From IMG/VR virus record IMGVR_UViG_2690316233_000014: DNA of 11,758 nucleotides; one strand, written 5' to 3'. Below are positions 1,270 through 11,758 of the stretch, one piece after another (the stretch's first letter is position 1; each line of letters begins with the position of its first letter). The notes below the pieces were generated by a model. That model saw only the letters and a list, made by a program, of their open reading frames with translations. It had not been told where the DNA came from and searched no databases. This stretch comes from a virus (taxonomy: Duplodnaviria; Heunggongvirae; Uroviricota; Caudoviricetes). The translations under genes were made by a program, and so were the position numbers.

Positions 1270-1581
1270 TTATTCGGGAAATAACGCCCGGATATTTCCG
1301 GCCATCTGACTGGTTATCTGTGCGGTTGATACTGGCTGTGACGCGGGGCATTCTGTCCTGGTTTGTGTCACTGATAACGCCTCATCGTCAGCCCATGCAG
1401 CCAGTCGGTAAGCCTCTGCTGGATTCATTTTCAGAAGTGCCAGCCCGGCCAGAAAAGCCACGCGTTGGCCGCTTTTGCGGGCTTCTGGTGTAAGGCTGTC
1501 CAGCCAGGCGCATGCTTCGCTTTCGTTCTTGACGGCCGCAGGCTTCAGATAGAAACTTATCCGTCTGGTTGGTGTCGTCAT
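1270..1581 (-). CDS. parR: ParR-like partition adaptor / centromere-binding RHH protein, 103 aa
   Basis: Internal ATG at 1581-1579 preferred over the track start at 1716 (which overlaps parM by 130 nt); strong AAGGAG 7 nt upstream. Sits immediately downstream of parM. Translation MTTPTRRISFYLKP...LDSLTPEARKSG...LAGLAL...LFPE parallels plasmid R1 ParR as I recall it. Confidence 0.75.
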   Translation of the reverse strand: MTTPTRRISFYLKPAAVKNESEACAWLDSLTPEARKSGQRVAFLAGLALLKMNPAEAYRLAAWADDEALSVTQTRTECPASQPVSTAQITSQMAGNIRALFPE

Positions 1582-1585
1582 TGGT

Positions 1586-2545
1586 TTACTCCTTGTCCAT
1601 TGCGTACAGCCCATTAACCAGAGCAAACTGTGGCACCCCGTACGCGATGAAAGTCGCATTAACTCCGCAGGCTTCGCGGATAGCGGGTGCCACAATCTCC
1701 GCCCCGCCACCGACAACCATCACCCGACCGTAACCCGAAAAACCCGCCAGCGCGCGGATCACGCGTTGTTTCAGTGTTTCTTCCTTTTCACGAATAACCG
1801 CCATCAGGCTGGCGTAATGCGCGTCATTGTGGATGTGCTGGCGCAGCCAGGCTTCATCATGGCGATGTTCGATAATGGTATTGGCGATGTGGTGACTGGT
1901 GCGCATACCGTTAGTGGCCATCACCGACAGTACGGCATCGGCCATCAGAGAAACGCCTACGTGTGGATCGCAAAACACCTGGCTGATACCTGCCAGTTGC
2001 CCCTGAACCTTTGCCACATCCAGCGTGGTTCCGCCCAAATCCACAATCAGCAGGGATTCAAACGGACTCATGTCAGCCAGTGCCTTAAAGCCAGCCGGAA
2101 TGGATTCAGGCATAACCCGCACGTTACGGATAGTGAATGCTTCGCCGTTCTGGTACTCCACCGGGCGCATGACGTTCGCTTTTTTGCGGTTGATGTTGGC
2201 CATGTCCGGCTGTGCGTTTGTGTCGAAATACTCGCTCAGTGGCAGGGTGACAACCACATCCACCTCCTGTGGCGTGATGCCTGATTTGACCAGCGCGTGA
2301 TGAATGGCAATGACATTCACATCGCTGTACTGGTATTGCGTGTCGGTCGTCTGGACAAAGCGATCGCTGACCGGATCAAAACCATAGCGCACGCCATCAA
2401 GCATGTAGTTCGCGGGCTGCGTGCCACCGAACGGCGCAGACCATTCCGACTTGAAGCTGTTCGGGCTGATGGCGTTGCGGCGTTCGCCGTTCTCAGTCCA
2501 TGCCAGCTTGATGTTGGTGGAGCCGTCGTCGATACAAATTTTCAT
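1586..2545 (-). CDS. parM: ParM/StbA actin-like segregation ATPase, 319 aa
   Basis: ATG at 2545-2543 with AAGGA upstream, TAA at 1586-1588. N-terminus MKICIDDGSTNIKLAW (actin-fold phosphate-1 motif) plus SPNSF, YQYSDVNV, IHHAL, VMPESIPAG, IVDLGGTTLD and VVGGGAE blocks match plasmid R1 ParM closely as I recall it. Confidence 0.9.
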   Translation of the reverse strand: MKICIDDGSTNIKLAWTENGERRNAISPNSFKSEWSAPFGGTQPANYMLDGVRYGFDPVSDRFVQTTDTQYQYSDVNVIAIHHALVKSGITPQEVDVVVTLPLSEYFDTNAQPDMANINRKKANVMRPVEYQNGEAFTIRNVRVMPESIPAGFKALADMSPFESLLIVDLGGTTLDVAKVQGQLAGISQVFCDPHVGVSLMADAVLSVMATNGMRTSHHIANTIIEHRHDEAWLRQHIHNDAHYASLMAVIREKEETLKQRVIRALAGFSGYGRVMVVGGGAEIVAPAIREACGVNATFIAYGVPQFALVNGLYAMDKE

Positions 2546-2621: not shown

Positions 2622-5462
2622 TCATATATCGCTGCGCGTTTTTTGGTCATTTACGGGATTCGTGAGTCCCGTTTCTGTCTGTTTTTTGTTTCCGCTGGTC
2701 AGGCCACCCCGCAGCAGGTCTGCTTTGCGGCTGGCGCGTTCAGTGGTTTCACTGATTCTCTGTGCGTGCTCTGCGTCGCGGATGGCGCGCAGCATGTCAG
2801 AAAGCACGGTAACGGGTGTTTTCATGGTGTTCTGGTCCTGCTGAAGTGTGGATGCCAGGCGTGCGGCGGCTTCAGGGTCTGATGCCCCCAGCTGTGCCAG
2901 ATAGCTGGCGACCGGGTTATGGCGGATCTCCGTGCTGCTTACGCCATGATTACGGCTCAGGCGCTGCCAGAGCTGCGTGATTCGGCTGTCCGGGCGGGTA
3001 TCCGGTTTGCGTACAATTTCAAATCCCTGCGGTGCAATGATGCTGCCGTCAACGTACAGACTGCCGCCCCGTAACAGGTGCTGCATCTGTTGTTCACCGA
3101 TATGCAGGCCGAGAGATTCAGCAGACTCCCGCCATTCTTTAGCGAGTAATTCGTGGTTATCAGGCAAAGGCCGCTGCTGTTTGCGGCTCTGTGTCCAGCT
3201 CTGCATTTCATCACTGCTGTTTTTTGCCTGTTTGTCACGAAGCGAATGCATCAGCGCCCGGCGTTCGTGCCGTTTCAGTGAGCGCATCCATTCGTTCACT
3301 TCAACGCCGTCAGGGAGCTGCGGCCACGGTGCTGGCCGTTCTTCCGGCTGTTCTGTCCCGTTGTTGTCCGTTTCCTGTACACGGGGACAGTTATTGCCAC
3401 GAGTCCAAGGGGCGGCAGGGCCGCCCTGAAGGTCAAAACCATTTTCGCGGGCACTGTCTTCCGCTTCCGGTTTGCGTCTTACCAGCTTCCAGTTATCCGG
3501 ATGCGTGCACACACGGGAGGATTCCCCGATGAGTGGTGACCAGATCCCGTAAATCTGTACGCTCTGTTCGCCGTAATCGTTCAGCTCATCGGCGAGGTCG
3601 TAGGCGGTGCGAATCAGGTAGTCCTTGCGTGGAACAAGTACGCCGCCCTGTTTCTCTATGTAGGTGGCAAAACATCCGGCATCAGCGGCGGCAAGAACCG
3701 CATCCATTGCGTCATCCTTCAGCCGTTGCGGGCCTTCCGGGTTGCGTGCCATCTGGCTGGCAAGGCGGCGCAGTTCACGCCATACCTGGCGGGAGGGGAT
3801 GCCAAAGAACTGGAACTGGCGGACCCGGTGAAGGCGCGCCCAGCCGATGGCGCGTTCCACGCTCTCGGCCATTGATTTTCCGGTTTCGTGGTCAACGCGT
3901 GGCTTGCCCGTTTTCGGGTCGATGCCATCCACGGCACGGCTGTCCAGGTTTTTCCCGATGTAGGTGGCGATGTAGCTGGTCGGTGTGCCTTTTGAGCCGT
4001 CGACGTACTCCGCCTTAAAGCGTGGGGTAATATCATCACCCAGCTCGTGACGATCTTCCTGAATGGCAATATCGCGGGTGTGGGACACAATAGTGTCGAT
4101 TTCTTCCGGATGAGCAAAGACCATCATATGCCAGTGCACGGTGCCGTCATGGTGAGGCTCCACCGTGCGGATGCCATACCAGCGCAGGCCGTCGCGGTTC
4201 AGTTTCTTGCGGACCGCCGCAAAAAACGTGTTAACCAGGTAATCGCTGGAGTCGCGCATGGTGGCCCCGTTCCATTTGGGATTCGGATGACCGTTCTCTG
4301 TTGTGGCGTGGTATTTTGACGGGCAGGTGACAGTCAGAAACACCGCTTTGTCGCCACGGGCTTCGGCCAGAAGTTCCAGCCCCTTCATGGTGGCCATCAT
4401 TTCTGCCTTACGGTGAACCGGGTTACTTACTCCCGCGTAATACACTGTCTCGAGATCAATCGTGAACCCATCTTCGTTTTCCAGCATGAAACTTTTCAGG
4501 AAATCGCGTGTTTTCTCGCGCTGTGCGCGAAACTCGCTTAATGCGTCCTGGCTCAGATAGGGCGATGTTTTTCTGGAAACCAGACAGGCGGCGCGGAGTT
4601 GTTCTTCTCTCCACTCGCAACGTAACAGCCACAGTTTGCGTTTCCACCATTCCGCACAGGTCAGGCGAAGGATTGCGCCCGGCAGCAGCTCCGTGTCCGG
4701 TTCGTTCCTCCGGTCTTTATCTGTTGTCAGTGCGTCATAATGTGGAGGCATGATGTGCAGGTGTAACGCCATGCGGGCCAGCATCTGATACGCCTTCAGC
4801 GTTACATCCATGGTCAGTTCGCCATCGGTCGCGCCAAAGCCATCGCAGAGTTTTTCGAAGGTGCTGCTGAACATCGCCGCCGTCATGGTGGCCAGCGTCT
4901 GTATCTGGTGTTTGTTGAGCTGCGGCAGGTAAAGCAAATCGTCCAGGCGTTCGCGTCCGGCAAGGGAGCGATAACCAGGTGTCAGCCAGCGCCCGTCAGT
5001 GCGATCCAGACGTTCGAATATTTTGCGCAGGGTTCCGCGTGTATAGCGTTCCGCCTGCCAGCTCTTTTTGCCTTTCTGACGATCGGCTTCCTGCTTCTTG
5101 CGCAGGAAAGAGAGGTGGCGGCTCAGAGGTTCTCGCAGATAAACGGGAAGCGCCTTCAGTGTGGCAAAGGCACGGGCTACCGGGTCTTGTTCTGTTGCCC
5201 GGCGCTTACTGATGATGCTCTGTGCCAGCTTTTCACGCTGTCCGGCTTCCTCAAGGGATGCCATGAGTTTTTTACCCATGGCGGATTGTGCGAAAAAGGC
5301 TTCTTCCTTCGCTTCCTGTTCTTCCTGTGCCCTTTTGTCCGCCTCAAGGTAGCAACGGATGGCGCGTTGCAGGTCGGTTTCAGTTTCCTGCCTGCGCTCC
5401 GTAAATCTGGCCGGATCAATAGCTGGTCGTGGTTCATTCCAGCTCCATGCAAACGCACTCAT
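2622..5462 (-). CDS. rolling-circle replication initiator, HUH endonuclease of the P2 gpA / phiX174 A type, about 946 aa
   Basis: HUH motif VHWHMMVF (codons near 4128-4136) and paired active-site tyrosines in SYIATYIGK (YxxxY, near 3960-3976). No Walker A motif, so not a P4 alpha primase-helicase. ATG at 5462-5460 forms an ATGA overlap with the upstream stop; the track start at 5489 is GTG. Confidence 0.85.
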   Translation of the reverse strand: MSAFAWSWNEPRPAIDPARFTERRQETETDLQRAIRCYLEADKRAQEEQEAKEEAFFAQSAMGKKLMASLEEAGQREKLAQSIISKRRATEQDPVARAFATLKALPVYLREPLSRHLSFLRKKQEADRQKGKKSWQAERYTRGTLRKIFERLDRTDGRWLTPGYRSLAGRERLDDLLYLPQLNKHQIQTLATMTAAMFSSTFEKLCDGFGATDGELTMDVTLKAYQMLARMALHLHIMPPHYDALTTDKDRRNEPDTELLPGAILRLTCAEWWKRKLWLLRCEWREEQLRAACLVSRKTSPYLSQDALSEFRAQREKTRDFLKSFMLENEDGFTIDLETVYYAGVSNPVHRKAEMMATMKGLELLAEARGDKAVFLTVTCPSKYHATTENGHPNPKWNGATMRDSSDYLVNTFFAAVRKKLNRDGLRWYGIRTVEPHHDGTVHWHMMVFAHPEEIDTIVSHTRDIAIQEDRHELGDDITPRFKAEYVDGSKGTPTSYIATYIGKNLDSRAVDGIDPKTGKPRVDHETGKSMAESVERAIGWARLHRVRQFQFFGIPSRQVWRELRRLASQMARNPEGPQRLKDDAMDAVLAAADAGCFATYIEKQGGVLVPRKDYLIRTAYDLADELNDYGEQSVQIYGIWSPLIGESSRVCTHPDNWKLVRRKPEAEDSARENGFDLQGGPAAPWTRGNNCPRVQETDNNGTEQPEERPAPWPQLPDGVEVNEWMRSLKRHERRALMHSLRDKQAKNSSDEMQSWTQSRKQQRPLPDNHELLAKEWRESAESLGLHIGEQQMQHLLRGGSLYVDGSIIAPQGFEIVRKPDTRPDSRITQLWQRLSRNHGVSSTEIRHNPVASYLAQLGASDPEAAARLASTLQQDQNTMKTPVTVLSDMLRAIRDAEHAQRISETTERASRKADLLRGGLTSGNKKQTETGLTNPVNDQKTRSDI
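2651..2688 (+). repeat. hairpin repeat copy 2: TTTACGGGATT-CGTG-AGTCCCGT followed by a T-rich tail
   Basis: About 35 of 42 positions identical to copy 1 and 73 bp away. Stem ACGGGATT/AGTCCCGT with one G-U pair. Lies inside the last ~20 codons of the Rep ORF. Confidence 0.5.
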
Positions 5463-5848
5463 GGCTGGTATCCCGTCACGCGCTGCCACTCCTGCGAGAA
5501 GAGGGCGGAAAGGCGGTTAAATTCAGCGGTGTATTCACTCAGCGAGGCACACCCGCCAGCAGTGCGATGCGCCAGCATTGCTGCAAATACGGAGGCCGGG
5601 GAGTCGTAATACGCCAGCAGTGATTCGCCGTGCGGTGTCAGGCAGTGTAACGCCAGTCCGTGTGGTGTGAAATCCACGCGGTAGCAGTCGTCTACTGTGA
5701 AATAAAGGGTGTCTGCATTCTCCGGTTTTGTGGTGCGTGCTCTGTTGTCACGACCACGGATGTAGAGATCAAATAACCCCTGAAGAACGGGAGCCAGACG
5801 GGTGTCCTGTGTGCGCACCCATCTTGTGAAGTCATGAGCGTCAATCAT
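5459..5848 (-). CDS. hypothetical protein, 129 aa, translationally coupled to Rep
   Basis: ATG at 5848-5846, TGA at 5459-5461 overlapping the Rep ATG. Family not recognised. Confidence 0.6.
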   Translation of the reverse strand: MIDAHDFTRWVRTQDTRLAPVLQGLFDLYIRGRDNRARTTKPENADTLYFTVDDCYRVDFTPHGLALHCLTPHGESLLAYYDSPASVFAAMLAHRTAGGCASLSEYTAEFNRLSALFSQEWQRVTGYQP

Positions 5849-5920: not shown

Positions 5921-6151
5921 TTAATGGAGTTTGTTTTGCTGCTGGATGAGCTGTTGAAGCTCGTGCAGATCATCCGCCAGATAGCTGAAAACAGAGGCGG
6001 AATAAATGTTTGATAGTGCGTGGCTGCGCTCATGCAGCATATTGATGTGCATGATTTGCGCGACGCGTGATGCGCGGGAAAGTCTGCGGTTGATTTCAGT
6101 CTGGATGTGACGACGCTCCGCGATAGCGCGGTGCTGTTTGCGGTCTGCCAT
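5921..6151 (-). CDS. small basic helical protein, 76 aa
   Basis: ATG at 6151-6149 with AGAGG 8 nt upstream, TAA at 5921-5923. Translation MADRKQHRAIAERRHIQTEINRRLSR... is protein-like; preferred over the overlapping Ser/Arg-rich 205-aa track ORF. Confidence 0.55.
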   Translation of the reverse strand: MADRKQHRAIAERRHIQTEINRRLSRASRVAQIMHINMLHERSHALSNIYSASVFSYLADDLHELQQLIQQQNKLH

Positions 6152-6194: not shown

Positions 6195-6386
6195 GAGTTG
6201 AGAATCTCGGGGTGGCGAGACGTACAGGGTTCTCAACACCGGAGAGCAAAGAATCCGGCCCGACCGAAGTCGGCCCCGTACGCCCCGCCATAATTCTGAC
6301 GCGAAAAAGACGTGGCAATACAGTACGCACAAAAAAACCGCTTGCGCGGTTATGCGCTTTGCTCTGTATCGGGTTGAGAATCCCGG
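6195..6386 (-). ncRNA. candidate cis-regulatory or small-RNA leader with three related boxes
   Basis: On the + strand, box A GAGTTGAGAATCTCGG (6195-6210) and box C GGGTTGAGAATCCCGG (6371-6386) are 14/16 identical. Box B AGGGTTCTCAACACCGG (6226-6242) is complementary to both over 10-12 bp. A GGCCGAC-UUCG-GUCGGCC hairpin (6257-6276, - strand RNA) and a terminator lie between them. No ORF with a plausible RBS. Confidence 0.4.
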
Positions 6387-6455
6387 CACCCGTTTTATGA
6401 GGTGCAGCGGAAATGTAACCTGACCGATTGAGGCATGGCAAGCGGTTTTTTTGTG
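6328..6455. repeat. perfect 18-bp inverted repeat CACAAAAAAACCGCTTGC / GCAAGCGGTTTTTTTGTG flanking a 92-bp segment
   Basis: Left arm 6328-6345 and right arm 6438-6455 are exact reverse complements. The left arm is half of the - strand terminator; the right arm with CCGATTG...CAAGCGG plus a T7 run resembles a weaker + strand terminator. Confidence 0.55.
6330..6352 (-). terminator. intrinsic terminator or attenuator inside the leader
   Basis: On the - strand: AACCGC-GCAA-GCGGTT followed by seven U residues (GNRA-type tetraloop). Located upstream of the 76-aa, 129-aa and Rep genes. Confidence 0.45.
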
Positions 6456-6473: not shown

Positions 6474-6773
6474 TTACTGGTTCAGAAAAAAATCAAAAAC
6501 GTTATCGATGCGTTGCAGCAGCTCTTGCTGCATTGCTTCCGGCGTTTCCGGTTCGCCAGGTGCCCCCAGCGTTGCGCAGAAATCAGCGATTTCATGATGG
6601 AGCGTCAGGCGAATGGCAGGAGCCGTGGTTCTGGCGTGCTCCAGCTCATTCAGCAGTGCCAGCACAGCAGACGGCGAGAGCATTGCGCGAAATGCCAGTA
6701 ATTTTTGAGGCGTTGCCATTCGTTGCAGGGCAAATGCCAGTTCGCGTAGCTTCTGGTGGTTGATGGTGCTCAT
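6474..6773 (-). CDS. hypothetical protein, 99 aa
   Basis: ATG at 6773-6771 in an ATGA overlap with the upstream stop; TAA at 6474-6476. Family not recognised. Confidence 0.6.
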   Translation of the reverse strand: MSTINHQKLRELAFALQRMATPQKLLAFRAMLSPSAVLALLNELEHARTTAPAIRLTLHHEIADFCATLGAPGEPETPEAMQQELLQRIDNVFDFFLNQ

Positions 6774-7036
6774 GCTCTGGCTTCCTTCAGTAGCTGGTTA
6801 AACATGTGAGTAAGTGGATTGCTACACCCGAACGGCATCGGGTTTACGTGGTAAGAAGCCTGGCCTCCTGTTTTGCGAGCGCGACCACCTGTGCTGCGGT
6901 TTGTTCTGATGACTAAGCCGCCGCGCCAAAGTCGGCGTAACTCAGCATTAATGGCTGTGGTTGGGGTGTTCAGTGCTGCGGCGATTTCTCCGCCGCTACA
7001 ACCCGGATGTGTAGTGATGTAGTCCAGAATGGTCAT
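6770..7036 (-). CDS. probable winged-helix DNA-binding protein, 88 aa
   Basis: ATGA overlaps at both ends. The segment SGGEIAAALNTPTTAINAELRRLWRGGLVIRT has a wHTH-like pattern; assignment is by pattern only. Confidence 0.55.
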   Translation of the reverse strand: MTILDYITTHPGCSGGEIAAALNTPTTAINAELRRLWRGGLVIRTNRSTGGRARKTGGQASYHVNPMPFGCSNPLTHMFNQLLKEARA

Positions 7037-7725: not shown

Positions 7726-7754
7726 GTTTTCAGGTTTTCAGGTTTTCAGGTTTA
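7726..7754. repeat. tandem octamer GTTTTCAG, about 3.6 copies
   Basis: Copies at 7726-7733, 7734-7741 and 7742-7749 plus a partial copy. Sits in the gap between the 37-aa ORF stop and the 138-aa start; the palindrome TCCGCGAATGCGGA (7709-7722) is adjacent. Confidence 0.6.
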
Positions 7755-7776
7755 ATCTGGTGTTTTGTTTAAGCTG

Positions 7777-7890
7777 TTATTTGTCAGTGAAAAAGCGTTC
7801 AATCTTTTTTACTGAATGAATAATTCGCATAATCCCAATGGCGCAGGCCACCGAAATAATCAGAACAAGCCATGAGATAAATATACTCAT
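7777..7890 (-). CDS. small membrane peptide, 37 aa, absent from the ORF track
   Basis: ATG at 7890-7888 overlaps the TGA of the upstream 80-aa ORF (ATGA); TAA at 7777-7779. Hand translation MSIFISWLVLIISVACAIGIMRIIHSVKKIERFFTDK: one transmembrane helix and a basic C-tail. Confidence 0.5.
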   Translation of the reverse strand: MSIFISWLVLIISVACAIGIMRIIHSVKKIERFFTDK

Positions 7891-8129
7891 GCGATATTCC
7901 CCAGCTTATACGGTTCAATGTGTTCCCCGCATTCTGCGGCACAGATCAGCTCGGAAAGTTCGTTCAGTGCATCCAGATCATCAGCGTAAAAAGCAACGTC
8001 ATACAAACTCCGGATTGCCCTGGTCAATGAATCACGGGCTGCATGTTCAGCATGAGCGCCTGATGCACTTAAGCGAAAATAAAATCGTTCAAGTGCTTTG
8101 TTAATGAGAGTTTTATATTCTTTGCCCAT
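7887..8129 (-). CDS. hypothetical protein, 80 aa
   Basis: ATG at 8129-8127, TGA at 7887-7889; fits the - strand operon and is coupled to the downstream small ORF. Preferred over the antisense + strand ORF 7838..8104. Confidence 0.55.
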   Translation of the reverse strand: MGKEYKTLINKALERFYFRLSASGAHAEHAARDSLTRAIRSLYDVAFYADDLDALNELSELICAAECGEHIEPYKLGNIA

Positions 8130-8140
8130 CGCAACGCCCT

Positions 8141-8419
8141 TTAATCTGCTTTCTGAATTTCAGCTTCTGAATCCATACAAATAATTTCGATATAGGGTTC
8201 ATCGCCATTAACCTGACGTGCCTTTTCAGCTTCGCTAATGATTTCTCGTACGGTCTGGTACGGAAGCTCCACAGTCAGGCGCGTACCGTTCAGATAAACG
8301 TAAGTAGCTGCGTTTTTTTCGGATGGAACAACTCCGTCAATTGCTGATGCGCGTAATAACAGTTCACCGCGAAAATCAATAAAACGGATAAATACACCTT
8401 GTGCATGCTCTTTGGTCAT
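8141..8419 (-). CDS. hypothetical protein, 92 aa
   Basis: Internal ATG at 8419-8417 preferred: it lies 10 nt after the upstream stop with AGGTG in between, whereas the track start at 8479 is TTG and overlaps the upstream gene by 50 nt. Confidence 0.55.
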   Translation of the reverse strand: MTKEHAQGVFIRFIDFRGELLLRASAIDGVVPSEKNAATYVYLNGTRLTVELPYQTVREIISEAEKARQVNGDEPYIEIICMDSEAEIQKAD

Positions 8420-8429
8420 AAAGCACCTG

Positions 8430-8780
8430 TTATAAATCAGCCTGTTTAATAAAACTTTGCCCGCGAAGCAGACGATCAACCGTGCGAAGTGCTTCGTATA
8501 ATGTGAAATCCTGCCCGAAGTGATTGTCGCCGCAGTTCAATGCAAAAATGCGGTTTCCGGTAAATGGATTGCGTGGGCATTTGTGGACCACGATTCCAGC
8601 TTTCTCAATCAGCCAGGCATGCTCGCCGATTTGTTTTACAGCGTGGCCATCCGGTGTTGCGTGCGTCTCGTTCAGGTTATAGCGACTGTTACTACGTGAT
8701 GCACTGGTAGCGACGTGGTGTACATGGCGTTCTACGCCATTACGAAATTTGGAGTATGGATTATTAGCGTTTTTTTTCAT
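8430..8780 (-). CDS. hypothetical protein, 116 aa
   Basis: ATG at 8780-8778, TAA at 8430-8432. Verified codon by codon against the track translation. Family not recognised. Confidence 0.6.
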   Translation of the reverse strand: MKKNANNPYSKFRNGVERHVHHVATSASRSNSRYNLNETHATPDGHAVKQIGEHAWLIEKAGIVVHKCPRNPFTGNRIFALNCGDNHFGQDFTLYEALRTVDRLLRGQSFIKQADL

Positions 8781-8801: not shown

Positions 8802-9005
8802 TTAGCTGTTAGCCAAAGCGTCTTTTAACATCGCCACAAGGTTTACTTCAGGCTTTTCCATTTTGGCGCGTTTGGGGCGGATAATAATTCGACCGTCAGC
8901 CAACATCTTTTTGCATGTATTAAGAGGGATACCTGTTATCTCTGCATATTTCTGCAGGGATACATAGGGGGCATTCACATTGATATTGATGGTTATACCT
9001 GACAT
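8802..9005 (-). CDS. Cox/Apl-like small HTH protein (candidate excisionase / lytic-side regulator), 67 aa
   Basis: Strong AGGAGG 8 nt upstream of the ATG at 9005-9003. The segment PYVSLQKYAEITGIPLNTCKKMLADGRI follows the pattern of P2 Cox (IPYQEFAKLIGKSTGAVRRMIDKGKLPVI, as I recall it), and its position in the operon divergent from the repressor agrees. Confidence 0.6.
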   Translation of the reverse strand: MSGITININVNAPYVSLQKYAEITGIPLNTCKKMLADGRIIIRPKRAKMEKPEVNLVAMLKDALANS

Positions 9006-9021
9006 CCCACTAGCCTCCTGA

Positions 9022-9228
9022 TCAGGAAGATTTGTTTTGTTCTTTCTGGGTTAGCTCTAGGCCGCGAAGGAAGATCATGCGCGCCATGTTAGAGGATGAG
9101 CGTTGTTCTTTAGCTGCCATTTCATCAATGACGGCTCGCTCCTCGAGGGACAGCCGAAGTGCCAGTCTTGGACCTGTGGCGGTGTTACGCGGAATGCGTG
9201 ATCTGGTATCGTGAAGAACTTGTTTCAT
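9022..9228 (-). CDS. ribbon-helix-helix (Arc/CopG-type) DNA-binding protein, 68 aa
   Basis: RLALRLSLEERAVIDEMAAKEQRSSSNMARMIFLRGLE fits the beta-strand, helix, helix RHH pattern. It is the first gene of the leftward operon; no Shine-Dalgarno before the ATG at 9228, so the mRNA may be leaderless. Confidence 0.6.
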   Translation of the reverse strand: MKQVLHDTRSRIPRNTATGPRLALRLSLEERAVIDEMAAKEQRSSSNMARMIFLRGLELTQKEQNKSS

Positions 9229-9303
9229 AGTGGTATATTGTGATCATCTAATAGCTCGTGAAATCATTTTGGTATCAAAAAAGATACCTGTCAAGGTTTT
9301 TGT
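9229..9303. promoter_or_regulatory. divergent promoter and operator region between the RHH operon and the XRE repressor
   Basis: 75-bp AT-rich gap with an inverted repeat GGTATC-AAAAAA-GATACC (9271-9288), a further TGGTAT half-site at 9231-9236 and a TGATCA palindrome at 9241-9246. Candidate -35/-10 hexamers on both strands are not resolved. Confidence 0.5.
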
Positions 9304-9708
9304 ATGAAAAATGATATTGGTCAGCGGTTGCGTGAGGAAAGGGAAAGATTGGGACTTAGTCAAGTTGCCATGAGCGACATTGGTGGAGTCAAAAAGCTAA
9401 CTCAGCTTAGATATGAGAAAGGAGATAGCTTTCCTGATGCTGCGTATTTGGCAGCGCTGTCTCGTTTTGGCCTTGATGTTCAGTATGTTGTGTTGGGAAT
9501 TCACTCACCTGAAACTTATAACGATGATGAGCAGGAGTTGATTACTCGCTTTCGAGCAGCTTCGTTAGATGTGAAAAACGCGGTGATTGGGGCTTTAAAA
9601 GGTGCGATCAGTGAAAAGGAAACTCAGCCATCAGGACGTGAGTTAAATATTTCTGGTGGTAATAACCGTATCGCTGGTCGTGACTATAACGAAACTAAGG
9701 GTAGGTGA
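9304..9708 (+). CDS. XRE-family HTH repressor (CI/C-like), 134 aa
   Basis: ATG at 9304 with AAGG upstream. N-terminus IGQRLREERERLGLSQVAMSDIGGV is a classic Cro/CI-type HTH. Ends with three tandem in-frame stops TGA TAG TAG (9706-9714). Confidence 0.8.
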   Translation: MKNDIGQRLREERERLGLSQVAMSDIGGVKKLTQLRYEKGDSFPDAAYLAALSRFGLDVQYVVLGIHSPETYNDDEQELITRFRAASLDVKNAVIGALKGAISEKETQPSGRELNISGGNNRIAGRDYNETKGR

Positions 9709-9723
9709 TAGTAGGGAGGTGAC

Positions 9724-10374
9724 ATGGCCGTCAACTCAAACGGTTCAAACAATCGCGTTGCTGGGCGTGATTTTCACGAAAAGAATATTCAGATAGAGCG
9801 ATATGATGGTTCTCATACCGTCAATATCGCAATCCCTTCGAATAATGATGATGACGATCGCCCTTTGCTTAAGGCTCAGCGTAAGGAGCTAAATAGCTTG
9901 GTTGCTGCTATTGCAGAAGCTAGCAATACTGAAGCGTTTATTATTTGGCAAAAAGTACATGCGGAGATTGGTGTAGCTGGTATTGATGATATGACAGTAA
10001 ATCAATATAAAACAGCGGAGAGTTTTCTGCATGCAATGCTTGAGCGATGTAAAGATCATGATGCCTGTAAGGCTCTTGTAAGTTTATTACTACGTAACAG
10101 TGAAGACTGTGGACTTCGACAAAAACTTCTGCGGTATTGCCATATCAATTTCGGTACAGGACGTTTAAACGATCTTACTCGTTCTCAGTTACAGTCTGCA
10201 TTGTCGTGGTTAGAGCAACAATCGGCATCAAGCCACACAGAGAGTTCGACCTTACCAGAAGTCCGACTTCGTGCTTCAGAATTAATCCGACTTTATCCAA
10301 AAGAAATAATATTCTTTATCTGCGTAGGGGTTTTGGTAGGCGGTGTCATTTCTAGGGCGTTTTTTAATTTGTAA
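9724..10374 (+). CDS. tail-anchored membrane protein of unknown function, 216 aa
   Basis: Strong GGGAGGTGA Shine-Dalgarno before the ATG at 9724. C-terminal hydrophobic stretch EIIFFICVGVLVGGVISRAFF. The N-terminal motif SNNRVAGRDFHE echoes GNNRIAGRDYNE at the repressor C-terminus. AT-rich. Confidence 0.65.
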   Translation: MAVNSNGSNNRVAGRDFHEKNIQIERYDGSHTVNIAIPSNNDDDDRPLLKAQRKELNSLVAAIAEASNTEAFIIWQKVHAEIGVAGIDDMTVNQYKTAESFLHAMLERCKDHDACKALVSLLLRNSEDCGLRQKLLRYCHINFGTGRLNDLTRSQLQSALSWLEQQSASSHTESSTLPEVRLRASELIRLYPKEIIFFICVGVLVGGVISRAFFNL

Positions 10375-10403
10375 TCTTACTTGAGCTAAATTGAGGTAAT
10401 GAT

Positions 10404-10751
10404 ATGAAAGTAAAAAATGTTCAACTATTAGTTACTTTTTTATCTATGTTTTCTTTTTCCGCCGTCGCAATGCCTTTTAAAACTATTGAACGTGAGAGTT
10501 TTAATGGGGTATGGCCATTTAATACTGATGAGGTTCAATTACAGTGTCTTGATGGTAATCCTTATGTGATGAATTTTGACGATAATAAGTTATATGCACT
10601 TACAGGTTTGGCTCGAATAAAAGGTAAAACATTTGGTGCGTTACCGTTAGATAACAATAATCCATTTTGGCTAGATAATGATGCCGCCCCAGGGTTAAAA
10701 AAGAGTCTGGGGGATGTCACTAAGGCTGCATTTGATTTATGTGATAAGTAA
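10404..10751 (+). CDS. secreted or periplasmic protein with an N-terminal signal peptide, 115 aa
   Basis: GAGGT 7 nt before the ATG at 10404. MKVKNVQLLVTFLSMFSFSAVA looks like a Sec signal peptide; the mature part has two Cys residues. AT-rich. Confidence 0.65.
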   Translation: MKVKNVQLLVTFLSMFSFSAVAMPFKTIERESFNGVWPFNTDEVQLQCLDGNPYVMNFDDNKLYALTGLARIKGKTFGALPLDNNNPFWLDNDAAPGLKKSLGDVTKAAFDLCDK

Positions 10752-10756
10752 CTAAA

Positions 10757-11758
10757 ATGTCGGTTCGTAAGATTCCATCAGGTAAATGGCTTTGCGAATG
10801 TTATCCCTACGGGGCATCGGGAAAACGCATTCGTAAACAGTTTGCGACAAAAAGTGAGGCGCTCTCTTATGAGCGCCGTTTAATGAATAGTAGAGTTGGA
10901 GACGAGTTTCAAGATGGTTCTGGTCCTCGTCTTTCTGAGTTGATTGCTCGTTGGTTTGAGATGTACGGTAAAACCTTGTCCTCTGGTGCAGAGCGCAAAG
11001 TCAAACTTGAGGCGATTTGTTCCAGGCTGGGAGATCCATTTGCTTCTCAGTTTGACAAAAATATGTTTGCTACTTATCGGGAAAGAAGGCTATCAGGAGA
11101 ATGGAATCCCAAGGGGAAGAAAAAACTTAGTGAAGCAACCGTTAATCGCGAGCAGTCATATCTACATGCTGTTTTTGCCGAACTGAAGCGCCTTGGGGAG
11201 TGGTCTGGTGAAAACCCCCTGACTGGTATTCGCAAGTTTCGTGAGGAAGAAAAGGAACTGGCGTTTCTGTATGTAGATGAGATTGAACGCCTTCTGATTG
11301 CGTGTGATGAGTCACGGAATAAAGATTTGGGGGTTGTTGTCCGTATTGGGCTTGCGACGGGTGCTCGGTGGAGTGAAGCAGAAGGATTAAAGCAATCTCA
11401 AGTACTGCCCGGTCGAATCACATTTGTTAAAACTAAAGGAAAGAAGAACCGCACTGTACCGATTTCACCTCAATTGCAGGCTATGCTTCCTAAAAAACGA
11501 GGAGCGCTATTTTCACCATGTTATGAGGCTTTTGACGCTGCAATTAAGAGAGCGAAGATCGAGCTTCCTGATGGGCAATTAACTCATGTGCTACGTCACA
11601 CGTTTGCCAGTCATTTTATGATGCGGGGCGGAAATATTCTTGTGTTGCAAAAAATACTGGGGCATAGCGATATAAAAATGACTATGCGTTATGCGCATTT
11701 TGCTCCAGGTCATTTAGAGGCTGCTGTTGAATTGAACCCTTTTGACAATAGAGGGTAA
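10757..11758 (+). CDS. int: tyrosine recombinase / phage integrase, P2 Int-like, 333 aa
   Basis: Catalytic signature TGARWSEA ... HVLRHTFASHFM ... GHSDIKMTMRYAHF (Arg, His-x-x-Arg, Tyr). Length and blocks such as ITFVKTKGKKNRTVPIS and LQKILGH parallel P2 integrase as I recall it. Complete; stop at 11756-11758. Confidence 0.9.
   Translation: MSVRKIPSGKWLCECYPYGASGKRIRKQFATKSEALSYERRLMNSRVGDEFQDGSGPRLSELIARWFEMYGKTLSSGAERKVKLEAICSRLGDPFASQFDKNMFATYRERRLSGEWNPKGKKKLSEATVNREQSYLHAVFAELKRLGEWSGENPLTGIRKFREEEKELAFLYVDEIERLLIACDESRNKDLGVVVRIGLATGARWSEAEGLKQSQVLPGRITFVKTKGKKNRTVPISPQLQAMLPKKRGALFSPCYEAFDAAIKRAKIELPDGQLTHVLRHTFASHFMMRGGNILVLQKILGHSDIKMTMRYAHFAPGHLEAAVELNPFDNRG

What the first reader, a model, noticed from the sequence alone, without database searches (positions are those of the whole stretch)
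9304..10751. Repressor-linked cargo pair (tail-anchored membrane protein plus secreted protein) in an AT-rich island between repressor and integrase
In P2/186-type elements the repressor is normally followed directly by int. Here two visibly AT-rich genes sit between them on the same strand, so they should be expressed in the lysogen. A membrane-anchored cytoplasmic protein plus an exported partner matches the logic of superinfection-exclusion or abortive-infection modules (for example lambda rexAB, sieB). The membrane protein N-terminus carries the motif SNNRVAGRDFHE, echoing GNNRIAGRDYNE at the repressor C-terminus with different codons. The two ORFs share a frame but are separated by three tandem stops.
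Basis: partly seen in the sequence, partly recalled or inferred. Interest (0 to 1): 0.7.

Follow-up and report, generated by a model that had tools for sequence, protein, structure and literature searches.

The report
Repressor tail mirrored on membrane partner
A prophage's master repressor ends in a short peptide motif that is repeated at the start of the membrane-anchored protein encoded right after it, and the two copies change together across many phages, which points to an undescribed repressor-to-membrane coupling in the lysis-lysogeny switch.

Summary
The window is the immunity end of a P2-like (Xuanwuvirus) E. coli prophage. It reads HTH repressor (9304-9708), three tandem stops, a tail-anchored Flk_N-family protein (9724-10374), a secreted DUF2511/YebY-like protein (10404-10751), then integrase.

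The "cargo pair" reading is only half right. Only the third gene is swappable, AT-rich cargo (GC 0.35). The membrane protein is a fixed partner of the repressor. In 83 of 87 related loci the repressor is followed within about 35 nt by a gene, and all 48 unique partners have a predicted TM segment. This holds in both P2-like and Mu-like phages.

The motif echo (LNISGGNNRIAGRDYNE / VNSNGSNNRVAGRDFHE) is not chance (z = 9.1). Repressor tail and partner N-terminus co-vary across at least 11 motif classes (permutation p about 5e-6), with no gene-conversion signature. AlphaFold2 gives low confidence (pLDDT below about 50, no secondary structure) for both segments in the monomers.

Best reading (inferred, not shown): a self-contained two-gene cassette in which homotypic beta-type pairing docks the repressor on an inner-membrane partner. 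The logic resembles anti-sigma factors or amyloid-signalling gene pairs. No description was found in the searched literature.

The parts
9304..9708 (+). Immunity-type XRE/HTH repressor, 134 aa: HTH domain aa 1-66, two helices aa 74-102, low-confidence tail aa 103-134
   Evidence: Pfam HTH_31/HTH_3 below cut-off, phrog_8 transcriptional regulator E 2.5e-14. AF2 pLDDT is above 90 for aa 11-60 and about 50 for the tail. It is divergent from the Arc-like and Cox-like genes.
9643..9693 (+). Repressor C-terminal motif LNISGGNNRIAGRDYNE (aa 114-130)
   Evidence: Conserved at the C-terminus of most repressor homologs. It matches the ORF2 N-terminus.
9706..9714 (+). Three tandem in-frame stops TGA TAG TAG, followed by the Shine-Dalgarno GGAGG at 9715-9719
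   Evidence: Read directly from the sequence. Lineage-specific and not conserved.
9724..10374 (+). Tail-anchored Flk_N-family membrane protein, 216 aa, the repressor's cognate partner
   Evidence: PF27202 Flk_N is recorded on its homologs. NCBIfam Flk matches aa 37-166 at E 8.6e-16. phrog_5825 matches full length. AF2 gives a helical domain at aa 46-172 and a TM helix at 184-215.
9730..9780 (+). Partner N-terminal motif VNSNGSNNRVAGRDFHE (aa 3-19)
   Evidence: S5 G7 N10 R11 G14 D16 E19 are invariant in 25 diverse homologs; G7 N10 R11 D16 E19 stay invariant in 62, and S5 and G14 are at 90% or more. AF2 pLDDT is below 50.
9805..9837 (+). Degenerate second pseudo-repeat DGSHTVNIAIP (aa 28-38), 15 aa after the first GRD core
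   Evidence: In other lineages this position reads xGRD[IFL]VNI[ST][IL]P.
10297..10368 (+). C-terminal transmembrane anchor (about aa 192-215)
   Evidence: The highest 19-aa hydropathy window starts at aa 195 (KD 2.36). AF2 helix 192-215.
10404..10751 (+). Variable-slot cargo gene: secreted DUF2511/YebY-like protein, 115 aa, GC 0.348
   Evidence: Pfam DUF2511 28.3 bits against a cut-off of 21. PDB YebY 7n0j E 0.0027. phrog_2950. Replaced by other genes in related prophages.
10757..11758 (+). Tyrosine integrase, last gene of the same-strand block
   Evidence: Pfam Int_N 5.2e-32 and Phage_integrase 2.5e-22. yecA lies beyond it in E. coli genomes.
8802..9228 (-). Divergent early genes: Arc-like (9022-9228) and Cox-like (8802-9005)
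   Evidence: phrog_3431 and phrog_575. Annotated the same way in phage 520873.

Best explanation
The repressor gene and the next gene form a self-contained two-gene cassette of the phage immunity region.

The repressor has an XRE-type HTH domain, two helices and a low-confidence, probably disordered tail of about 30 residues. The tail contains a strand-turn-strand-like motif (hNhSG-x-GNR-h-AGRD-Y/F-xE). The partner carries the same motif at its extreme N-terminus, followed by a helical Flk_N domain and a C-terminal membrane anchor, so its motif faces the cytoplasm.

I propose that the two copies pair directly and homotypically, by beta-strand addition or stacking that forms on binding. This would dock the repressor on the inner membrane in a cognate-specific way. 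The partner would then act like an anti-sigma factor or a membrane sequestrator, titrating, localising or releasing repressor and so tuning immunity and induction. Relatives whose partner has an added periplasmic domain suggest that envelope signals can feed in.

Shown: the motif pair, its conservation, the co-variation, the membrane topology elements and the operon-like arrangement. Inferred: physical binding, membrane tethering, and any effect on the lysis-lysogeny switch.

The third gene (DUF2511) is separate cargo in a variable slot before int.
For: 1. The motif echo is highly non-random (z 9.1). It is invariant or nearly so at S5 G7 N10 R11 G14 D16 E19 in ORF2 homologs and is present at the C-terminus of most repressor homologs.
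2. The cassette is conserved. It occurs in 9 further genera of P2-like prophages, in Klebsiella and other E. coli, and in Mu-like transposable prophages of Pectobacterium, Gilliamella and Pseudomonas. Of 87 loci, 83 have the downstream gene; the exceptions are two contig ends and two frameshifts. All 48 unique partners have a predicted TM segment.
3. The motifs co-vary. With one representative for each of 11 motif classes, cognate pairs score 41.2 on average against 23.1 for non-cognate pairs, the cognate is top-ranked in 8/11, and the permutation p is about 5e-6. With 24 representatives p is at most 1e-5. Within the AGRDY class, the partner has Tyr only when the repressor has Tyr (10/22 vs 0/15, p 0.002), and a small residue at the hydrophobic position is shared in 4/4 cases (p 0.002).
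4. There is no gene-conversion signature: only 191/445 identical residues use the same codon.
5. The motif match persists while the partner's other domains change (Flk_N, Zn-ribbon, two-TM proteins, added periplasmic domain) and while the repressor core stays nearly constant. The divergent early gene is not homologous between the P2-like and Mu-like contexts. That leaves the two motifs themselves as the co-evolving surfaces.
6. AF2 gives low confidence and no secondary structure for both motif segments in the monomers (pLDDT about 40-50), as expected for segments that fold on binding.
7. Intergenic gaps are mostly -4 to +34 nt, with 10 four-nt overlaps. The window has a strong SD and no terminator-like site, consistent with coupled co-expression.
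Confidence: 0.55

Rival explanations
1. Effector model, like amyloid signalling or a toxin-antitoxin pair. The membrane protein is a latent effector (membrane-damaging, growth-arresting or lysis-assisting). Its N-terminal self-association motif is either capped or templated by the repressor tail. Loss, displacement or conformational change of the repressor then switches the effector on, giving abortive infection, prophage addiction or a commitment step at induction.
For: The genomic signature matches fungal NWD2/HET-S and bacterial BASS pairs: a motif of about 20 aa is shared between the termini of adjacent gene products, the motif diversifies into families, and one partner acts at the membrane. 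Several partners carry two pseudo-repeats 15 aa apart against one in the repressor. The order 'XRE-HTH gene first, short gap or 4-nt overlap' resembles type II TA operons. Both motifs are low-confidence, probably disordered, G/N/Q-rich segments.
Against: ORF2 has no recognisable toxin or pore domain. Its closest named relative, Flk, is a regulatory tail-anchored protein. There are no PADLOC hits. The BASS paper reports its motifs specifically in multicellular bacteria, with NLR-like architectures rare or absent in Proteobacteria. Frameshifted partner genes occur next to an intact repressor gene (L002, L023), but no case of an intact partner without an intact repressor was looked for. Amyloid formation is untested.
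Confidence: 0.2
2. Mimicry or decoy model. The two motifs do not touch each other. Both bind a common third factor, such as an antirepressor, a protease or adaptor, or the partner's own helical domain. The membrane protein's copy then competes with the repressor tail and buffers repressor inactivation.
For: The window carries a C4/isrK-type antisense RNA module upstream of small ORFs, which suggests an antirepressor circuit. The Flk_N helical domain resembles the Red-beta C-terminal domain, which binds a C-terminal tail peptide of SSB. Many repressor tails end in a basic patch.
Against: Diversification into at least 11 classes with within-phage matching needs a co-diversifying receptor. No third gene travels with the cassette between the P2-like and Mu-like backbones. 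The partner's cytoplasmic domain is replaced in some lineages while the matching persists. A conserved host factor would not drive such diversification.
Confidence: 0.15
3. ORF2 and ORF3 are a horizontally acquired cargo pair that together exclude superinfecting phages or abort infection, like rexAB or sieB.
For: They are expressed from the lysogenic operon. One is a membrane protein and one is exported. A repressor-int hotspot carrying defence systems is documented in K139-like P2-related Vibrio phages (PMC9122126). ORF3 is AT-rich.
Against: ORF3 is swapped for unrelated genes while ORF2 stays. ORF2 accompanies the repressor even in Mu-like phages that have no int next to it. There is no homology to known exclusion or defence proteins. 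ORF2's GC is close to that of its neighbours.
Confidence: 0.06
4. ORF2 is a Flk mimic that manipulates the host flagellar type III secretion switch, for example to block flagellotropic phages. The motif similarity would be an evolutionary relic.
For: There is domain-level homology to Flk. Flk is a tail-anchored inhibitor of the flagellar secretion-specificity switch (PMC13344023).
Against: The family is abundant in Klebsiella, which to my knowledge is non-flagellate (P0095 is listed in 1158 index blocks). The score is far below the Flk equivalog cut-off (58 vs 353 bits). Chromosomal Flk proteins lack the N-terminal motif. A relic would not co-vary.
Confidence: 0.04

Closest known systems
Amyloid-signalling gene pairs (fungal NWD2/HET-S; bacterial BASS: Bell-domain protein plus NLR)
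   Same: A motif of about 17-25 residues is shared between the C-terminus of one protein and the N-terminus of the protein encoded by the adjacent gene. There are many motif families, and the match is kept within each pair. One partner acts at the membrane. The motif is G/N/Q-rich with alternating hydrophobic residues. Some partners have two pseudo-repeats against one in the other protein.
   Different: There is no NLR/STAND ATPase and no Bell or HeLo domain. The motif sits on the C-terminus of a small HTH repressor. The membrane protein is permanently anchored by a TM helix. The hosts are unicellular Gammaproteobacteria and the genes belong to phages, whereas BASS was reported specifically in multicellular bacteria. 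Amyloid formation is untested.
Salmonella/E. coli Flk ('Fluke'), Pfam Flk_N
   Same: Homologous helical cytoplasmic domain and a C-terminal membrane anchor. Flk acts by holding another machine (the flagellar export gate) in one state (PMC13344023).
   Different: Flk proteins are 330-490 aa, with a Pro-rich N-terminus (MQPxSGP...) instead of the beta-type motif. They are chromosomal and not linked to an HTH gene. ORF2 scores 58 bits against the 353-bit equivalog cut-off.
Membrane sequestration of transcription factors (anti-sigma factors such as RseA; Mlc-PtsG)
   Same: A membrane-anchored protein with a cytoplasmic binding element is co-encoded with a soluble DNA-binding regulator. Some relatives have a periplasmic domain that could receive signals. 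This comparison rests on general knowledge of those systems.
   Different: There is no sequence or fold relation. Here recognition would use mirrored terminal peptides rather than a folded anti-sigma domain. Sequestration itself is not shown.
Lambda cI-rexA-rexB; P22 sieB
   Same: Genes co-transcribed with the immunity repressor in the lysogen, including an inner-membrane protein. From general knowledge, RexA has been reported to modulate the CI switch.
   Different: There is no homology. No mirrored motif is known for those systems. ORF2 is conserved with its repressor across two phage families rather than being an accessory.
Repressor-integrase variable hotspot of K139-like P2-related phages (Rousset et al. 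2022, PMC9122126)
   Same: A slot between repressor and int with high gene turnover. In this window that slot is the third gene (DUF2511).
   Different: In this lineage the slot lies after the conserved partner gene, not directly after the repressor. DUF2511 has no known defence role.
Type II toxin-antitoxin operons with XRE-type antitoxins
   Same: The HTH gene comes first. The second gene is tightly coupled, with 4-nt overlaps in 10/48 pairs. A low-confidence, probably disordered C-terminal tail on the DNA-binding protein would fold on its partner.
   Different: The second gene has no known toxin fold, and homotypic motif sharing is not a TA feature. Toxicity is untested.

Membership tests
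Pfam Flk_N (PF27202) domain family | Significant match to the Flk_N / Flk profile over the helical domain | tested here: met
   PF27202 is precomputed on 119 of 120 listed homologs, including the 98%-identical P0001, and is named Flk_N. NCBIfam PRK10715 (Flk) matches aa 37-166 at E 8.6e-16. The local Pfam copy lacks this model.
Pfam Flk_N (PF27202) domain family | Cytoplasmic domain followed by a single C-terminal membrane anchor | tested here: met
   The only strongly hydrophobic segment is aa 195-213. AF2 gives a helix at 192-215 after a low-confidence linker.
Flk (flagellar regulator) orthologue | Reaches the NCBIfam equivalog cut-off and has the Flk architecture (Pro-rich N-terminus, 330+ aa) | tested here: not met
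   58.1 bits against a cut-off of 353. Chromosomal Flk-type representatives start MQPxSGP and are 330-490 aa, whereas ORF2 is 216 aa with a different N-terminus.
DUF2511 / YebY (ORF3) | Pfam DUF2511 above the gathering score | tested here: met
   28.3 bits against 21, over aa 28-113. Solved YebY 7n0j matches at E 0.0027.
Amyloid-signalling pair (BASS / HET-s type) | Short motif shared between the C-terminus of one protein and the N-terminus of the adjacent gene's product, matched within pairs | tested here: met
   Window pair z 9.1. Cognate versus non-cognate permutation p about 5e-6 over 11 classes.
Amyloid-signalling pair (BASS / HET-s type) | The receptor partner is an NLR/STAND protein (NB-ARC or NACHT plus repeats) | tested here: not met
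   The motif-bearing upstream protein is a 134-aa HTH repressor with no other domain.
Amyloid-signalling pair (BASS / HET-s type) | The effector partner has a Bell/HeLo-type membrane-targeting domain | tested here: not met
   The partner is Flk_N plus a TM anchor. There are no such Pfam hits and no significant Foldseek hit in the PDB.
Amyloid-signalling pair (BASS / HET-s type) | The motif forms amyloid fibrils or prions and cross-seeds its partner | not testable with these tools
   Needs peptide fibrillation, ThT or EM, or Podospora, yeast or C-DAG reporters.
Amyloid-signalling pair (BASS / HET-s type) | Match to one of the BASS1-10 motif profiles | not tested
   The profiles and logos are not available here, and the paper's figures are not held.
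Known superinfection-exclusion / abortive-infection modules (RexAB, SieB, PADLOC systems) | Sequence homology to a described defence protein | tested here: not met
   PADLOC gives 0 families for ORF2 and ORF3 at E up to 1. Pfam and NCBIfam give none.
Known superinfection-exclusion / abortive-infection modules (RexAB, SieB, PADLOC systems) | A phage-resistance phenotype | not testable with these tools
   Requires a phage challenge of a strain expressing 9724-10751.
XRE-family phage immunity repressor | HTH_XRE fold and a position divergent from the early lytic operon | tested here: met
   phrog_8 E 2.5e-14. Pfam HTH_31 scores 23.2 bits, below its cut-off of 27. AF2 gives a five-helix domain with pLDDT above 90. 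The gene is divergent from the Arc-like and Cox-like genes. Repressor activity itself is inferred.
Type II toxin-antitoxin operon | A tightly coupled two-gene operon whose second product is a toxin neutralised by the first | tested here: inconclusive
   The coupling is present (gaps -4 to +34 nt). There is no toxin domain. Toxicity is not testable here.

The most novel reading that the evidence does not exclude
Temperate phages of unicellular Gammaproteobacteria use a prion-like or amyloid-like templating motif to couple their immunity repressor to a membrane protein. The repressor tail and the partner's N-terminal repeat(s) would stack into a shared cross-beta or beta-arch unit. The state of the repressor would then be transmitted to, or set by, a membrane-anchored effector or sensor. 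This would extend NLR-type amyloid signalling to phage lysis-lysogeny or abortive-infection decisions, with at least 11 specificity classes that insulate co-resident prophages from one another.
Probability: 0.17. Interest if true: 0.9.

Novelty: new variant of a known kind. Interest (0 to 1): 0.75.

Why it matters
About one in ten complete E. coli genomes carries this exact region (516 of 5426). The cassette also occurs in Klebsiella, Salmonella, Serratia, Yersinia, Pectobacterium, Gilliamella and Pseudomonas prophages of two unrelated phage types.

If the mirrored motifs do bind, this is a compact, specificity-coded way of wiring a transcription factor to the membrane. It would be a previously unnoticed layer of the lysis-lysogeny switch in P2-like and Mu-like phages. 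It might explain how short XRE repressors that have no protease domain are controlled.

The motif classes would offer ready-made orthogonal peptide pairs. They would also provide a tractable E. coli system for asking whether amyloid-type signalling exists outside multicellular microbes.

The work also corrects the annotation logic for the repressor-int interval. In this lineage only the gene next to int is a cargo or defence slot.

Tried and rejected
1. Read-through or fusion idea. The same frame and the triple stop suggested a split or read-through fusion protein. The frame is the same in only 24/48 unique pairs, the stop context varies, and 4-nt overlaps are common. Rejected.

2. Recent gene conversion or duplication as the cause of the echo. 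Only 43% of identical residues share a codon, and in the window 6 of 10 differ. Rejected as the main cause.

3. Chance or compositional similarity. Shuffle and non-cognate controls rule this out.

4. Structure of a repressor-ORF2 complex.

5. Locus search with the divergent Flk_N alignment A2 failed because no stretch was conserved enough. The profile search with A2 listed only the same close relatives among its best 120. The genome-contig scan gave only 9 loci.

7. Literature searches found no description of this module. Terms tried: Flk + prophage + repressor; Xuanwuvirus; amyloid signaling + prophage + repressor; P2-like immunity regions; membrane-anchored sequestration. The library is incomplete, so this is absence of evidence only.

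8. A flagellar role for ORF2 was considered and set aside because of host range and sub-threshold scores.
Full report
**What the window is.** Bases 9000-11758 are 100% identical to chromosomal prophage sequence in many E. coli strains. A match covering at least 80% of the query occurs in 516 of 5426 complete genomes. The same stretch is 98% identical to Escherichia phage 520873, a P2-like phage (Peduoviridae, Xuanwuvirus). In strain C7 the prophage sits next to yecA. The window runs from the end of the portal gene through the variable slot between portal and replication genes, the 955-aa GpA-type replication endonuclease and the early operon. It ends with the divergent immunity block: repressor, ORF2, ORF3 and int.

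**Checking the observation.**
- The repressor (9304-9708) ends ...ELNISGGNNRIAGRDYNETKGR.
- Its TGA is followed directly by TAG TAG, then GGAGG, and four bases later by the ATG of ORF2 at 9724, in the same frame.
- ORF2 begins MAVNSNGSNNRVAGRDFHE.
- The two 17-residue segments give a local alignment score of 62, against 21.1 +/- 4.5 for shuffled partners (z 9.1, 0 of 500).
- They are the only two matches to the core pattern in all six frames of the window.
- Six of the ten identical residues use different synonymous codons.
- ORF2 has a single strongly hydrophobic stretch, at its C-terminus (aa 195-213). AlphaFold2 models it as a terminal helix.
- ORF3 has a signal-peptide-like N-terminus.
- AT-richness is marked only for ORF3 (GC 0.348). 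ORF2 (0.413) is close to the repressor (0.44) and int (0.45).

**What the three proteins are.**
- The repressor is an XRE-type HTH protein. It matches phrog_8 at E 2.5e-14, and Pfam HTH_31 just below its cut-off. AlphaFold2 gives a confident HTH domain (aa 1-66), two helices (74-102) and a low-confidence tail (103-134, pLDDT about 50).
- ORF3 is a DUF2511/YebY-like exported protein.
- Neither ORF2 nor ORF3 matches any PADLOC defence model.

**ORF2 is the repressor's partner, not cargo.**
- ORF2 homologs in Klebsiella and in other E. coli prophages again follow an HTH repressor, but the gene between them and int differs: a 288-aa BRCT-containing protein or DUF8087.
- A scan of one genome per species found the same order in Rosenbergiella, Mixta, Izhakiella, Enterobacter, Erwinia, Symbiopectobacterium, Hafnia and Arsenophonus. 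The third gene was again variable or absent.
- Repressor homologs with different tails turned out to lie in Mu-like transposable prophages of Pectobacterium, Gilliamella and Pseudomonas, recognised by a transposase, a MuB-like ATPase and nearby lysis genes. They too are followed at once by a Flk_N-type tail-anchored gene.
- Among 87 loci holding the repressor family, 83 have a downstream ORF of at least 90 aa starting within 160 nt. Two exceptions are contig ends and two are frameshifted genes.
- All 48 unique partners have a predicted TM segment. Intergenic gaps are mostly -4 to +34 nt, with ten 4-nt overlaps.
- The divergent early gene is not homologous between the P2-like and Mu-like settings. 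The conserved unit is therefore the two-gene cassette.
- A profile search of 1.84 billion representative proteins found only 138 Flk_N relatives. They split into phage-type proteins with G/N/Q-rich N-termini and chromosomal Flk proteins with Pro-rich N-termini.

**The motif co-varies.** Within the P2-like group both copies keep the core NR-h-AGRD-Y/F-xE. In other lineages both copies change together:

| Lineage | Repressor tail | Partner N-terminus |
|---|---|---|
| Pectobacterium | PQIFNGDISGQFAGNQIIN | RQEFNGTAQGQFSSRDIIN |
| Gilliamella | NNTIRGEGQIAGGNIY | QDNTAEQIAGRDIY |
| Pseudomonas | GQQFNGPVGTVTSGDVVN | NQQFHDRVHQVAAGDIKN |

 Further classes came from viral contigs, including partners that are not Flk_N proteins at all. 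These are a 118-aa Zn-ribbon/TM protein, 151-aa two-TM proteins, and 260-340-aa proteins with a Cys-containing periplasmic extension.

- With one representative for each of 11 classes, cognate pairs average 41.2 against 23.1 for non-cognate pairs. The cognate is the best match in 8 of 11, and no more than one in about 200,000 permutations reaches the observed sum. A 24-representative test gives p at most 1e-5.
- 42 of 48 unique pairs beat at least 495 of 500 shuffles.
- Inside the AGRDY class, the partner has Tyr only when the repressor has Tyr (10/22 vs 0/15). An Ala or Thr at the hydrophobic position is mirrored in 4 of 4 cases. Both tests give p about 0.002, not corrected for phylogeny.
- Only 191 of 445 identical residues share a codon, so gene conversion does not explain the match.

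**Mechanism.** Diversification with strict within-phage matching requires co-evolving surfaces encoded by the phage. The repressor core is nearly constant across classes. The partner's cytoplasmic domain can be replaced. No third gene travels with the cassette. The simplest account is therefore that the two motifs bind each other.

Both are low-confidence, probably disordered in the monomer models. Both have a strand-turn-strand composition. Some partners carry a second pseudo-repeat 15 residues downstream; in the window this is DGSHTVNIAIP at aa 28-38. All partners are membrane proteins whose motif sits at the N-terminus, ahead of the first TM segment. For the tail-anchored ORF2 type that places the motif in the cytoplasm, so pairing would dock the repressor at the inner membrane.

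I therefore favour a sequestration or tethering role comparable to anti-sigma factors (confidence 0.55). Binding, tethering and the effect on the switch are all inferred. The main rivals are:
- An effector model, in which the repressor tail caps or templates a latent membrane effector. This is the amyloid-signalling or toxin-antitoxin logic (0.2).
- A decoy model, in which both motifs compete for a third factor (0.15). The C4/isrK antisense RNA module in the window hints at an antirepressor circuit.
- A Flk-like action on flagellar secretion (0.04). This fits poorly with the family's abundance in Klebsiella and with the sub-threshold score.

**Comparison with known systems.** The gene-pair signature matches the one used to discover fungal and bacterial amyloid signalling motifs. 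That work found the motifs specifically in multicellular bacteria, with NLR-like architectures rare or absent in Proteobacteria, and it does not mention phages or HTH proteins. Here the NLR and Bell/HeLo features are absent, so this is not a member of that family, although it may work like one.

Flk ('Fluke') is the only characterised relative of ORF2. It is a tail-anchored inhibitor of the flagellar export switch (PMC13344023), but it lacks the motif. The variable third position fits the repressor-integrase hotspot described for K139-like P2-related phages (PMC9122126).

Searches of the held literature found no description of a repressor-tail / membrane-partner motif pair.

**Verdict.** The lysogenic expression and the repressor link are plausible, but the 'pair' is repressor plus ORF2, and ORF3 is independent cargo. 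I rate it a new variant of a known kind (matched-motif adjacent-gene coupling, or membrane control of a transcription factor), with interest 0.75. The decisive tests are complex modelling, binding and localisation assays with motif swaps, prophage genetics, and fibril assays.

Noticed in passing
window 6208-6295 (-) and 6331-6405 (-): Rfam gathering-level hits to C4 antisense RNA (78.5 bits) and the isrK Hfq-binding RNA (63.1 bits). They lie just upstream, on the same strand, of small ORFs 5921-6151 (76 aa, phrog_3688) and 5459-5848 (129 aa, phrog_3237). The layout looks like a P1 c4-icd-ant or Gifsy-1 isrK-anrP type antirepressor control module inside a P2-like early operon.
   Followed up: partly
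window 1270-2545 (-); L001 4137-7507: A ParM-like partition ATPase (319 aa) and its partner (phrog_691, phrog_2515) occupy the slot between the replication endonuclease gene and the portal gene. E. coli C7 has an S8 peptidase plus an AAA ATPase there instead. This is the known gpA-gpQ hotspot, where partition systems were already reported (PMC9122126).
   Followed up: partly
L003 4647-5513; L014 4135-5013; L109 2871-4193: In Klebsiella, Enterobacter and Salmonella relatives the variable slot before int holds proteins of 288-440 aa with a BRCT domain. They also give weak matches to WYL and to PADLOC candidate PDC-S48, so they are possible defence or regulatory cargo.
   Followed up: partly
L109 767-1982: A Salmonella prophage has three tandem paralogous HTH repressor genes before the Flk_N gene. 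The first two end in the AGRDY motif. The third has a degenerate tail (ISDARNISDTGNNENK).
   Followed up: no
L106 3001-4132: A tail-less repressor homolog (P0224, 119 aa, common in E. coli P2-like prophages at the pgsA/uvrC site) has no Flk_N gene. It is followed by a 117-aa Cys-rich protein and a 140-aa coiled-coil tail-anchored protein before int.
   Followed up: no
L077 3008-4033; L090 2911-3720; L091 2926-3870; L092 2923-3900; L093 2926-3915; L099 2926-3711: Partner proteins of 260-340 aa carry, after the TM segment, a small conserved Cys-containing C-terminal domain (C-x-[FY]-x-G-x2-[YF]-[SA]-x-G ... C ... W). It is presumably periplasmic, has no Pfam match, and is a possible sensor input.
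   Followed up: partly
repressor homologs P0121-P0235 (C-termini): After the beta-type motif, many repressor tails end in a short basic patch (NENKK, SNKKNK, TTRRRKTK, GAKKKK). The window's own tail ends ETKGR. The patch could contact the membrane or DNA.
   Followed up: no
L002 (phage 520873, NC_049344) 6715-6888 and 7750-8750: In the deposited phage 520873 genome the ORF2 homolog is truncated after 58 codons and int is annotated in two pieces. These look like frameshifts or sequencing errors, so the only phage-collection record of this region (deposited under two accessions) does not annotate ORF2 or ORF3.
   Followed up: no
[not shown]
   Followed up: partly
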